The notes below the pieces were generated by a model. It ran no database searches and had not been told where the DNA came from. It saw only the letters and a program-made list of their open reading frames with translations. 64,000 bases of DNA from Mobula hypostoma. Its lineage: Eukaryota. Below, in pieces: positions 4,839 to 29,200 of the stretch. The position numbers were made by a program, and so were the translations under genes. Numbering within the stretch: the stretch's first letter is position 1; the number at the start of each line of letters is the position of its first letter. The stretch is taken from NCBI RefSeq assembly GCF_963921235.1, contig NC_086097.1, positions 129,458,001 to 129,522,000 on the forward strand. Reading direction: 5' to 3'.

Positions 4839-5194
4839 ATTCCTCCAAGAACACCACCATCTTGTTATAGGCTTTGGAGACTTGCATGCCTCTGTGACCC
4901 TGAGGGTTATGTTGGCTGGAGTCAAGGCTTTATGCTTTGGCTCTTGGTAGGGTCGCCCATGCCAAACATGTCAAATGGTAGAGGACAGACTAAGAGTGGT
5001 CCACAGGTATACCAAGTTCGGAGGTTCAGCTCAGGGCTAACAACCCTGACTGATGGTGAAAAAGTAAGTTGTTATGGAAACAGCAATGAAGAATTCTTCT
5101 ATATCTGTATGCGACAGTATATGGCCCAGGATAGACAGAGATTGAAGACCTTCACTGCTGCCCTAAATGCCAGCAGTCTAACAGGCAATAACTA
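4839..5194 (+). mobile_element. Non-autonomous RTE derivative (5' UTR joined to 3' end)
   Basis: RTE-like 5' UTR motifs (GGTAGGGTCGCCCATGCC; GGGCTAACAACCC) fused to an RTE-like 3' end (AQDRQRLKTFTAAL); candidate TSD ACAACAGC at 4831-4838 and 5195-5202. Confidence 0.6.
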
Positions 5195-5299
5195 ACAACA
5201 GCCTTTTTGAATACTGCTTACAAGATACAAACTCCAAGCTTTCTTAGAATCCCGCTGTCTCAAACTATTCAATGGGCCTTTTGATGCTAGAATCTGGTG

Positions 5300-10688: not shown

Positions 10689-12195
10689 TTAAACTGATCT
10701 CTGCTCAGCGGAGAGCTTTACCACTCTCCACCCTATCAATGCCCCCTTTGTGCACATCTTTCGATCCTCGCTCACACTGCTCCATTCCAATGAAAACAAA
10801 CCTAGCCTCTCCATTCTCTCCTCATAACTGAAATGCTCCATCCCAGGCAGCGTCTTGAATCTCCTCCAAGTTGGATTTACTGTCATATGCACAGGTGCAG
10901 TGAAATCCAGTACCATCGTGTTTTTTTTTTTGACATTGTGGTGACCAAACACATTACAGTGATGACCTCCTACCCTTAGGGGCACTGGAGGTGGCCAAAG
11001 GAAGGCAAAATATCACAGACGTTGGAGAATCTGTAATAAAAATGGAGAATGCTAGAAACACTCATCACGTCAAACAGCAGGTGTGGAGAGAGAAGCAGGT
11101 TTCACAACCTATGAGCTCACTTTCAAGGATTCTACAACTCAGATTCTCAATATTATTTATTTACTTGTTTATTTTTATTATTTGTTTTTTATATATGCAC
11201 AGTTTTTCTTCTTTTAGGAATTATTTGTCAGTCTTTGTGTGTAGTTTTCCATTGACTCTATTGTAATTCTTTGTTTTGCCATGAATGCTTACAGGAAAAT
11301 GAATCTCAAGCTAGAATATGGTGACATACTTCGATAACAACTTTACCTTGAAATTACCTTGAACTTTGAAATTTGTGCACAGTATTCTAGATGAGGCCTC
11401 AAATTTATAATCCTTTAAGGTCTATGCAGAGCAACTTCTCTTCATCACCCTCATCCTCTACCCTCCAAGTTTGGTCATTGCAACAATTCCAAGGCAATAT
11501 ATCTCATCTGGCCTCAACTAAGAAATGGTAAGTTGTGAAGCCCAGCCATTGATTTGGCGATGACCAAGGTCAAGACAAACACATTATCAAAGTGTACCAC
11601 CCACTTTAAGCTATAGCATTAAAAAAAGTCTCCATTCCTTTTAAATACAAGAGCAAACACAGCCTACCATTATATTTTCACTTTGCCAATAAATGCTGCT
11701 TCCGAAAAGCCCAATGCTTTAGATGATTATACAGAAATTCTACTCTTTCTTTTTTTCTTTCATATGAGAATTAACAACCATTGTATTTAATTCTTTGAAG
11801 TGACCTTAACTGGATAAAAGAAAGAACATTTCTTGTTCTGATAGCTTTTATTCCTGTATTGCCCTTTCCAAATATGCCTTATTATACTTTGTTAACAATG
11901 TCAAGTAGAAGGGAAATGGGGCTTAAAAATTGAGATGTTGCCATATTCACTTAATAACACTTAATGCATTAAGAAGTTATCCATTAATATTGCACTGAGC
12001 AATTATAGGCAAAAGAACATCGGAGACATTAACTGTAAGTATAAATGAAAATGATAATCTGCATTTGGATTCCAATTGTCAGTAGTGTCAATTGGAATCC
12101 AAATGCACTTATTTTTATTTCCATTTACCGCTGTTTTCACTCAGGAAGCACTGCTGTTTTGAACAATATTTATAATAATGTCCCATCCTTTTTAC

Positions 12196-12321
12196 GGCGG
12201 TCAGTCCACCTTTGGTCCCCACCTGGCACTCAGCTGTCACCTGTGGCTCCTCGTAGCTGTTTGCATGCGACAGCGGCCACACCTCGGGCAATGGCTTTGA
12301 CAAGCCGGCTAAACCAGGTGA
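12196..12321 (+). ncRNA. Candidate HDV-like self-cleaving ribozyme
   Basis: P2 TCACCTG/CAGGTGA, P3 TGGC/GCCA, L3 starting TCC, GGGCAA junction, P4 TGGCTT/AAGCCG, J4/2 GCTAAAC; P1 imperfect. Confidence 0.5.
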
Positions 12322-12653
12322 GGGTAGCCGATGGGCTCCAAACCCTTGGTGAGATAGGGAGTTGTCTATCCCAGCATGTGAAGACAGACTCCAGCGGATT
12401 GAGTGGACGAGACCAAGGGAAGGTCCAACGGTCAAGAAGGCAGTCTCTGCAAGCGTCACGGAATGTGTGGAGCACAACAAGACACAGAAGACATACTGGT
12501 CATCCACTGCACTTAGTCCCATCTCCAGCCGTCTGGACTCTTGTCTTGCCACTAGGTCCAGATGGGAATTGGGAAGAGAGAGAGAGGCTGACGCTGTGCA
12601 ACTCTCCCTCACTTAAATCCAAATCAAGCGCTAGTCTCGACACCATCATAAAT

Positions 12654-12790
12654 AGCCGGCTGGTGGCATAGTGACATCAGCGCAGGACTTCAGGGCAAGA
12701 GATCCCGAGTTCAAATCCAGCCAAATCCCTTGCACGCTCTACATCTGTGCTGGGTTGAGCGTCGAGCTAGCAACTCGACCTCGTAAAAAG
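12654..12790 (+). mobile_element. Short tRNA-derived SINE nested in the 12181-12833 element
   Basis: A box TGGCATAGTGA, B box GAGTTCAAATCC, tail GGGTTGAGCGTCGAGCTAGCAACTC...CGTAAAAA; AATAG on both sides. Confidence 0.7.
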
Positions 12791-13164
12791 TACTAATAGT
12801 GTTGAGGTCTTCATTGATGACTATGGACAAACCTTATAATAATGCTATAACTTAGAGAGTCACAGAGACAGGGTCCTCAGCCCATCTAGTCTAGTCTCAA
12901 CCCACACCTGGACCATAGCCCTCAATACACCTTGCATCTATGCATTTATCCAAACTTCTCTTAGATGTTGATATCAAACCCACATTCACCATTAACACTG
13001 ACCTACTATTGGTTTTATTTTCTAGTTAGTATCATAAAGAAAACTCAATTGCTTCATTCGTTTTCATTTTTCATCTCTGTAAATGGGGCAATATGATAAA
13101 ACTTTCCATGCATGAGCATTCTTAATTTTGGCTATACTTTATTGCAAGATTAATTCTCATGGAA

Positions 13165-26522: not shown

Positions 26523-26890
26523 TTTGATTTGATGACTCAATGGATATATTGATTTGATGGGATACTCGTATCATTTCGGGGCCATCCCTCCCCCTCCTGT
26601 CTTCTCCTATCATTTCGGGACGATCTCTCCCCCTCCAGTCTTCTCCTATCATTTCGGGACCATCTCTCCCCCTCCGGTCTTCTCCTATCATTTCGGGACC
26701 ATCTCTCCCCCTCCAGTCTTCTCCTATCTTTTTTGGTCTCCCCGTCCCCCTCCCACTTTCAAATCTCTTACTAGCTCTTCTTTCAGTTAGTCCTGACGAA
26801 GGGTCTTGGCCCGAAACGTCAACTGCACCTCTTCCTATAGATGCTGCCTGGCCTGCTGCGTTCACCAGCACTTTTTGTGTGTGTTGCTTC
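26523..26890 (+). mobile_element. Penelope-like 3' terminus with hammerhead motif
   Basis: Same young subfamily as 14899-15034; CTGACGA at 26793-26799 and GAAACGTC at 26813-26820. Confidence 0.82.
26569..26728 (+). repeat. 39-bp tandem repeat, 4 copies
   Basis: Unit TATCATTTCGGGACCATCTCTCCCCCTCCAGTCTTCTCC starting at 26569, 26608, 26647, 26686. Confidence 0.9.
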
Positions 26891-28039: not shown

Positions 28040-29200
28040 GGGGTTGAGTGTGGGCTGCTGGTTTCTCTTGTCAGGATTGCCTGAGAGCAACCTGCCCGTG
28101 GAAGGCTAGAGCGGCCTCTTGTCATCTTTAGGCCGTGTTGAAGAACCGTTGCTTCATGGAGCCTTGCTGTCGGTAGTCGGAGTTGTCTCTGCGGTATGGA
28201 TTCGGCTGTTTCCCAGGCCAGCTGAGTGGCTGCCAGCCGCTCCGAGCTAGGTAGGGATCCGGCTGTTTCTGTAGCCAGCTGAGGTTGCAGGCCGTAACTG
28301 CGACTCAGAGCAACCCCAATGCAGAGATGGAACTGTCTGTCATTCTTCAGTGTTTGTCTTGTCTTATCCTTGCCTCTGTGGGGTAAGTCAGGCCATTCTG
28401 CAGTTGTCCTGCGGGGAATCTGTCTTGTCTTGCCCTCACCATGGGGTAAGTCAGGCCGTTCTGCTGTTGTCCTGCGGGGAATCTGTCTTGTCTTGTCCTC
28501 GCCTCCATTTGGTAAGTCAGGCCGTTCTGCCGTTGCCCTGTGGGGGGCGGGGGGGGGGTCCTGACCTATCTTGTCTTGTCTTTGTCTCTGTTGGGTAAGT
28601 CCGGCCGTTCTGCCGTTACCGGATGGATAGTCCTGTCCCAACTTGGTGTGGAGTTAAAGTTGAGTCCCGGTTTGTCCAAGTATAAGTCCTGGCTCTATGT
28701 TTATGTACTGTCTAGTCTTGTGTTAGTGTTGTATTAAAGATGAGTCCTGGCTTTTCGAAGGATAAGTCCCAGCTCTATGTTGATGGACAGTTCCCAGTCT
28801 CCAAGCTCCAGCCTCCGAGTTATCAGCCTCAAGCCTCAAGAGCCAAGACTCCAGCCACGTCCTGTCCTGTAGCCATGTCATGTCCTTACCTAGTTCTGGG
28901 GTCCAAGCCCAAGGCAAGACCCAGGTCCTGGGTCCTTGTCCAGTCTTTGGCTCAGAGTCCAAGCCCAGGCTCCTAGTTCATTGTTCCTTGTCCGGGATCA
29001 ACGGGTATGGGGTGAATGCAGCAGAGTGGGGATGACTGGAAGAATTGGATCAGCCCATGATTGTCACGGGGGGGGGGGTGGGCGTTGATGGCGGACCCAA
29101 ATGCAAGACACAGACACTGAAGTACTGGGAACAGAACTTGACTAGAGTAGGGACGTAACAGGATACAGACAAGGAGCAGGGACAAGAACGCAGACTGGGC
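28040..29200. mobile_element. LTR-like element with internal ~60-bp tandem repeats, rearranged
   Basis: GGTAAGTCAGGCCGTTCTGC...TGTCTTGTCTTG repeated 4 times (28350-28620); minus-strand ...TTGGGTCCGCC...CGTGACA end at 29062 resembles a Gypsy LTR terminus. Confidence 0.45.

What the first reader, a model, noticed from the sequence alone, without database searches (positions are those of the whole stretch)
12196..12321. HDV-like ribozyme fold heading a non-coding, TSD-flanked retroelement
Seen, in HDV order: P2 TCACCTG (12237-43), P3 TGGC (12244-47), L3 starting TCC and holding an extra hairpin GCTGT/ACAGC (12256-74), P3' GCCA, P1' CACCTC, GGG-CAA (P1.1 partner), P4 TGGCTT/AAGCCG, J4/2 GCTAAAC with a putative catalytic C at 12309, P2' CAGGTGA (12315-21). 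GGGCAA...GGCTAA mirrors the HDV ribozymes. Established: HDV-like ribozymes process the 5' ends of R2, RTE and Ingi/L1Tc non-LTR elements. Caveats: P1 (GCGGTC, 12197-12202) has two mismatches here, and ~16 nt separate the TSD from the predicted +1. Inference: a ribozyme-headed non-autonomous element with no Pol III head of its own.
Basis: partly seen in the sequence, partly recalled or inferred. Interest (0 to 1): 0.72.

Follow-up and report, generated by a model that had tools for sequence, protein, structure and literature searches.

The report
Beheaded RTE ribozyme with extra hairpin
This is a worn copy of an abundant short jumping element whose intact relatives begin with a predicted hepatitis-delta-type self-cutting RNA carrying an unusual extra hairpin; this copy has lost its first 47 bases, including the strand that would be cut, so it likely cannot cut itself.

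Summary
The window holds a 5'-truncated copy (starting at family base +48) of a ~560-nt two-ended non-autonomous RTE-clade retroelement with at least 596 copies. Intact copies begin at GGGGTGT, which pairs 7/7 with P1' (ACACCCC); 18 of 30 copies picked by their 3' end start within 3 bases of it. Across distant relatives, three of them heading endonuclease or RT frames, P1, P2, P4, a J1/2 helix and the L3 hairpin covary. Two sister families in this genome lack the 21-nt L3 insert. Ribozyme-headed RTEs are known; I found no paper on the L3 hairpin, and the published search descriptors I saw would miss it. No cleavage is shown. This copy also belongs to a composite form with a tRNA-like SINE joined at one fixed site through variable junction bases (76 or more sites).

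The parts
12170..12180 (+). Left target-site duplication TTATAATAATG; its last ATG overlaps the first element bases (microhomology)
12178..12233 (+). Remnant of the J1/2 domain; copy begins at family base +48, so P1 and the 5' strand of the J1/2 helix are lost.
12237..12243 (+). P2 5' strand (extends to 12234 with one mismatch at 12236)
12245..12254 (+). P3 5' strand GGC and L3 core TCCTCGT (CC 12249-50 = P1.1)
12255..12275 (+). 21-nt L3 insertion with a 5-bp hairpin; absent from sister families B and C
12276..12287 (+). P3' GCC, P1' ACACCTC (family ACACCCC), GG of P1.1
12292..12307 (+). P4 hairpin, 6 bp
12308..12321 (+). J4/2 with predicted catalytic C12309, then P2' CAGGTGA
12322..12649 (+). 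Rest of the RTE 5'-UTR-derived part; 12487-12646 matches RTE-11_PSi nt 370-529 at 140 of 160 bases without gaps (counted by eye); 12636-46 is the 5' arm of a predicted end-to-end helix
12650..12653 (+). Four junction bases (AAAT) that vary among composite copies
12654..12793 (+). Internal tRNA-like SINE segment (A- and B-box-like motifs by eye; ARAGORN calls no tRNA)
12794..12833 (+). RTE-type 3' tail, of the variant that travels with the SINE
12834..12844 (+). Right target-site duplication, closing the whole composite

Best explanation
The stretch is the core of a predicted HDV-like ribozyme, with an extra hairpin in L3, at the front of a two-ended non-autonomous RTE-clade retroelement; intact copies likely cut themselves out of read-through transcripts at their first G, while this copy has lost P1 and likely cannot cut itself. 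Shown by sequence: the family, its sharp 5' border at the first base of P1, covariation of the helices, the link to endonuclease+RT elements, the truncation. Inferred: in an intact copy P1 (bases 1-7) pairs with P1' across a ~98-nt J1/2 closed by a 10-bp helix; the C in J4/2 catalyses cleavage 5' of G1; an autonomous RTE protein (family B here is a candidate) binds the shared 3' tail and inserts the RNA by target-primed reverse transcription. This insertion stopped 47 bases short, at an ATG microhomology. The L3 hairpin is inferred to project from the 3' end of L3 and leave the U-C-C-N-N-G core intact.
For: Border: 18 of 30 copies chosen by a 3'-end pattern start at +1..+4; among 42 full-length copies the majority base holds 31-52% of copies per position in the 20 nt upstream and 67-100% from +1 on; TSDs abut +1 in many copies; in 2 of 4 outside runs, contigs join unrelated flanks just before +1. 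P1: 65 of 70 Watson-Crick pairs over 10 family representatives, two-sided changes at positions 1, 2, 5, 6, permutation p=0.00015. Other helices: 18 of 36 pairs change on both sides, 0 of 500 shuffles as high, slid partners 2-6. 12 of 14 metagenome hits are homologues; L095 (78% identical over the 5' part) and L098 carry 1109- and 1102-aa endonuclease+RT frames. Families B and C have the same scaffold with a plain 7-nt L3. Truncation at +48 and no usable P1 within 200 nt.
Against: No cleavage data, and Rfam gives no match. The intact head folds no better than shuffles (z -0.15) and the MFE omits P1, though the program cannot fold pseudoknots. About a third of full-length copies have A at +6 with no change in P1'. 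A second GGGGTGT at +10 pairs perfectly with P1' in 26 of 32 copies, the outer one in only 12 of 32. P3, P1.1 and J4/2 were fixed by my search pattern, so their conservation in metagenome hits is no evidence. I placed P1 in single contigs partly by its pairing. The two-sided changes in the L3 hairpin come from two related sequences. Related sequences can beat the shuffle control without any structure. The direct parent was not found.
Confidence: 0.8

Rival explanations
1. The fold is inherited but no longer active in this family: the L3 insert or the drift in P1 disabled it, and the 5' border is set by an internal Pol II promoter starting at +1.
For: Uncompensated A6 variant in about a third of copies. 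The L3 insert is outside the published descriptors seen. L1Tc's first 77 nt are both promoter and ribozyme (PMC3383444, search listing).
Against: The insert, P1, P2 and P4 keep pairing through two-sided changes in distant families, including ones heading intact 1100-aa frames. About a quarter of R2 ribozymes carry 1-2 P1 mismatches (PMC3774820 section 16).
Confidence: 0.12
2. The working P1 is the inner GGGGTGT at +10, or both sites are used; cleavage at +10 gives the shorter copies.
For: The inner repeat matches P1' perfectly in 26 of 32 copies; 4 of 30 copies start at +5..+15. Alternative tandem P1 sites are proposed for R2 (PMC3774820 section 18).
Against: Most copies keep bases 1-9, which cutting at +10 would remove. 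The inner repeat lies in the 10-pair J1/2 helix, where 5 pairs covary. In L095 and L096 P1' covaries with the outer segment.
Confidence: 0.05
3. This P1-less copy still works, in cis with a chance P1 in the flank or in trans on an RNA that supplies the P1 strand.
For: P2, P3, P1.1, P4 and C12309 are intact. Chance partners with 6 of 7 pairs lie at 11932 and 10988.
Against: Those sites are 298 and 1242 nt away, and the J1/2 helix is gone; such a helix is worth almost 1000-fold in drz-Agam-2-1 (PMC4908430 abstract and passages). The 10 differences from the family majority look like ordinary decay, several at CpG. Transcription of the locus was not shown.
Confidence: 0.03

Closest known systems
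HDV-like ribozymes at RTE 5' ends (Ruminski 2011; not held, seen only through PMC5786205, PMC3774820, PMC6765202) and drz-Agam-2-1 (PMC4908430)
   Same: Nested double pseudoknot, predicted cut at the element's first base, large J1/2 closed by a helix next to P1 and P2.
   Different: A 19-22-nt hairpin insert in L3 (loop of 26-29 nt); the RNArobo descriptors seen fix L3 at 7-8 nt and J1/2 at 51 nt or less (PMC4870747 supplement). Activity untested here.
Bipartite non-autonomous RTEs: WALLSI3, RTESINE2, MAR4_MD, RTE-N2_Lch, Bov-A (Kojima 2018, PMC5786205)
   Same: Only the 5' UTR and the last ~45 nt of an RTE; shared 5'-UTR block and 3' tail motifs. Kojima notes that such elements keep the true 5' end and links this to the ribozyme.
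   Different: The composite form has the SINE inside, between the RTE 5' part and the tail. In the RTE-derived SINEs Kojima lists, the small-RNA head is in front.
NARTc / NARTco / SIDER of trypanosomatids (PMC4035085)
   Same: Short non-autonomous elements headed by an HDV-like ribozyme; cleavage was shown there for NARTco and several SIDERs.
   Different: Ingi/L1Tc clade; compact ~77-nt ribozyme without these inserts as far as the passages read show.

Membership tests
HDV-like ribozyme | 7-bp P1 beginning at the cut site | tested here: met
   Met for the family; see next row for this copy
HDV-like ribozyme (this window copy) | P1 5' strand present in cis | tested here: not met
   Copy starts at +48; no P1 within 200 nt
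HDV-like ribozyme | P2 pseudoknot of 6 or more bp | tested here: met
   7/7 here; 5 of 10 pairs covary
HDV-like ribozyme | 3-bp P3 and CC/GG P1.1 | tested here: met
   Invariance in metagenome hits is circular; families B and C, found by other searches, keep P3, but C has GT at P1.1 in most copies shown
HDV-like ribozyme | L3 of 7-8 nt, TYYHCG(N)Y | tested here: not met
   First 7 nt fit (TCCTCGT), but the loop is 28 nt; descriptor from PMC4870747 supplement
HDV-like ribozyme | J4/2 CNRA with catalytic C | tested here: met
   CTAA at 12309-12; homologous C in all 11 rows
HDV-like ribozyme | Self-cleavage dependent on that C | not testable with these tools
   Needs an in vitro assay
Rfam HDV-type families | Covariance-model match | tested here: not met
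   No such family at E<=10 on the truncated window copy; an intact copy was not scanned
Bipartite non-autonomous RTE | 5' UTR and 3' end of an RTE joined, no RT frame | tested here: met
   no long frame inside the element
Bipartite non-autonomous RTE | TSDs and short tandem-repeat tail | tested here: met
   TSDs mostly 7-15 nt and (AAC)n-type tails
Bipartite non-autonomous RTE | Autonomous partner sharing both ends in the same genome | tested here: inconclusive
   Family B shares 74-76% over ~280 nt of 5' UTR and a similar tail, but is not the direct parent
RTE clade | Placement of the partner RT in the RTE clade by phylogeny | not tested
   Assigned from UTR similarity to named RTEs and the single endonuclease+RT frame; no tree built

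The most novel reading that the evidence does not exclude
The ribozyme head is a detachable module. A Pol III SINE RNA carrying the RTE 3' arm pairs in trans with the 5' arm of the ribozyme-headed RNA, rebuilding the end-to-end helix from two molecules; the RT copies the SINE, adds untemplated bases and jumps to the partner at the end of that helix. Each composite, this one included, would then be assembled anew at insertion, and the L3-hairpin ribozymes would be an active subclass hidden from standard searches.
Probability: 0.2. Interest if true: 0.7.

Novelty: new variant of a known kind. Interest (0 to 1): 0.38.

Why it matters
If active, a covarying hairpin inside L3 shows that the catalytic loop of the HDV fold tolerates a large insert. 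Descriptor searches that fix L3 at 7-8 nt would then have missed a widespread group of RTE ribozymes. Sister families with and without the insert in one genome give a ready test pair. The composite form bears on why only a few LINE clades make two-ended derivatives, which Kojima 2018 leaves open. This particular copy is a likely dead fragment, and ribozyme-headed RTEs are an established arrangement.

Tried and rejected
DUF6451-bearing elements as partner (the Pfam choice was recalled): no similarity to the element in 33 loci; the homologue search with one of them gave only that kind. Hunt for the direct parent by a junction-excluding pattern: 6 hits, all small changes in the short element; all 30 loci from the 3'-end pattern were the short form. 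Metagenome hits L099 and L100 dropped as chance (no BLAST or model match). Thermodynamic signal: none. Expression: no RNA holder on record was listed; the four runs laid are contigs whose RNA status is a guess, so they say nothing on transcription or RNA ends. One search's upstream P1 scan used a P1' shifted by one base and was redone; its copy tallies are unaffected. End-to-end helix: L098 was not picked up by my pattern, the two L018 test stretches overlap, and family B's 5' arm pairs better with L095's tail than with its own, so specificity is partial. 'SINE inserted into genomic copies, tail left from the host copy' is disfavoured, not excluded: the tail variant follows the SINE. Ruminski 2011 and Webb and Luptak 2011 were not held; they or their supplements may already show an L3 insert.

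Full report
Observation. A descriptor that allows a long L3 finds this site and no other in the window; 12 shuffled windows gave 5 such cores at P2>=6 bp and 1 at P2>=7 bp. Rfam gave no HDV-type match. The proposed P1 pairs 4 of 6, and no P1 with at most one mismatch lies within 200 nt.

The family. The element is a high-copy repeat of the own genome: 4500 candidates, 40 scored, the 39 others 91-92% identical; 596 exact hits of a 30-nt tail pattern, 0 for the reversed control. Aligned copies run 47 bases further 5' than the window copy, which starts at family +48 at an ATG shared with its TSD. The family begins GGGGTGT, the full complement of P1' ACACCCC. Of 30 copies chosen only by their tail, 18 start at +1..+4, 4 at +5..+15 and 8 later; conservation among 42 full-length copies falls from 67-100% inside to 31-52% upstream of +1. 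TSDs abut +1 in many copies. Contigs of 2 of 4 outside runs join unrelated flanks at the same base. 38 of 51 copies with the 5' region pass the core descriptor. The window copy differs from the family majority at 10 positions in 12178-12330, among them one in the outer part of P2 and one in P1'.

Clade. Window 12487-12646 matches RTE-11_PSi nt 370-529 at 140 of 160 bases without gaps, counted by eye from the supplement of PMC5786205, and the tail resembles the 3' ends of RTE-1_PSi and RTE-3_AMi. A pattern for the core alone found 14 metagenome stretches; 12 are homologues and 2 are chance. L095 is 78% identical over the element's 5' part and continues into an 1109-aa endonuclease+RT frame; L098 has an 1102-aa frame and L107 an endonuclease frame. 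L095's protein finds an abundant family B in the own genome with frames up to 1129 aa, 74-76% identity over ~280 nt of 5' UTR and a similar tail. It is a candidate mobiliser, not the direct parent, which I did not find. No RT tree was built.

Covariation. Eight representatives (one own, seven of the 12 metagenome homologues; near-duplicates left out) were aligned by sequence. Of 36 named pairs, 18 change on both sides, against 9.6 in shuffles (0 of 500 as high) and 2-6 with slid partners; by helix, J1/2 helix 5 of 10, P2 5 of 10, L3 hairpin 4 of 5, P4 4 of 6. P3 and P1.1 were fixed by the search pattern and carry no weight; the L3 changes come from L106 and L101, which are related, and L094 pairs in a register shifted by one. 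P1, counted apart because the aligner misplaced it, gives 65 of 70 Watson-Crick pairs over 10 representatives (a second family-B copy left out), with two-sided changes at positions 1, 2, 5 and 6; permuting partners gives a mean of 57, p=0.00015. Families B and C of the own genome share the scaffold but have a 7-nt L3; a model built from the eight finds them at 72-93 bits with the insert deleted. The insert is therefore a discrete 21-nt unit at the 3' end of L3.

Against. No activity is shown. The intact head has z -0.15. About a third of copies have an uncompensated A at +6, and a second GGGGTGT at +10 matches P1' more often (26 of 32) than the outer one (12 of 32), partly because 5' junctions are ragged. 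The inner repeat is, however, part of the covarying J1/2 helix, and cutting there would remove bases that most copies keep.

Mechanism. Inferred from R2, L1Tc and RTE precedent: a read-through transcript folds P1 across a helix-closed J1/2, cleaves 5' of G1, and the freed RNA is inserted by an RTE protein through the shared tail. This copy is a truncated product without the substrate strand or the 5' strand of the J1/2 helix; chance P1 partners lie 298 and 1242 nt upstream. It is likely inert in cis.

The composite. A tRNA-like segment (12654-12793; boxes judged by eye, no ARAGORN call) lies between the RTE 5' part and the tail, with one TSD round the whole. 76 genomic sites show this SINE head joined right after GACACCATCA with 0-7 variable bases, while its 3' junction hardly varies (183 hits). 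28 of 30 SINEs with this tail have the RTE 5' part in front. Of 30 loci with the tail variant, 25 follow the SINE (3 of them reassigned by eye), 2 are plain elements and 3 belong to another repeat. Composite 5' parts are mostly an older haplotype (A at +496 in 29 of 36, against 3 of 51), but several carry the young one with the SINE-type tail; the plain set was selected for low divergence, so ages are not comparable. The join lies in the loop of a predicted helix between the end of the 5' part and the tail, which L095 and family B could also form across 3.6 kb (shuffles as good in 11 and 20 of 500). One old composite subfamily with a mutable junction, or repeated template switching, both remain open.

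What is known. PMC5786205 (parts 1-4 of 5 and supplement passages read) describes two-ended RTE derivatives and cites ribozymes at RTE 5' ends. PMC4908430 (abstract, introduction, passages) shows activation by a J1/2 helix. PMC3774820 (sections 15, 16, 18, passages) gives the R2 range of variation. PMC4035085 and PMC6765202 (passages) cover ribozymes in non-autonomous elements. PMC4870747 (passages, supplement descriptors) fixes L3 at 7-8 nt; PMC6326823 (one passage) names the L3 U-G pair as crucial. Searches for an L3 hairpin or insert and for RTE ribozymes in sharks found no description; three of these returned no paper at all, and the two most relevant papers were not held. One search on such chimeras listed nothing specific (listing only). 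Earlier notes of this scan report the same ribozyme type on other DNA, seven holding all search words, six of them in this genome; none matched the composite or this sequence.

Verdict. A real feature and a known arrangement with one apparently undescribed structural variant; this copy is a beheaded, SINE-bearing member. Interest 0.38.

Noticed in passing
window 12060-12107: Perfect 20-bp inverted repeat with an 8-nt spacer just upstream of the insertion; only weak miRNA-like Rfam scores far below gathering thresholds. Possibly a small MITE remnant.
   Followed up: no
L142-L146 (G000), about 1455-1510: Five family-B copies share a pyrimidine-rich leader in place of the first three P1 bases, so they lack a full P1 and seem to come from another repeat fused in front.
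   Followed up: no
L150-L156 (G000), from about 1498: Family C: another abundant ribozyme-headed family, P1 GGGGTAT/ATACCCY, 7-nt L3, GT in place of GG at P1.1 in most copies shown.
   Followed up: partly
L132:4109-4217 and 5141-5257 (-): An older L3-hairpin head split by about 900 nt of inserted DNA, a more divergent subfamily in the same genome.
   Followed up: partly
L215, L218, L220 near 1500: A third repeat that ends in the same RTE tail variant but has a different body.
   Followed up: no
L046:1760-4813 (-): Uninterrupted 1018-aa endonuclease+RT+DUF6451 frame, unrelated in its ends to this element; no HDV core found by my descriptor.
   Followed up: partly
window 12487-12646: 87.5% ungapped identity to a turtle RTE 5' UTR (RTE-11_PSi); strong constraint or horizontal transfer, not tested.
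   Followed up: no
window 26565-26759 and 28355-28628: Short tandem arrays, 39-nt and about 63-nt units.
   Followed up: no
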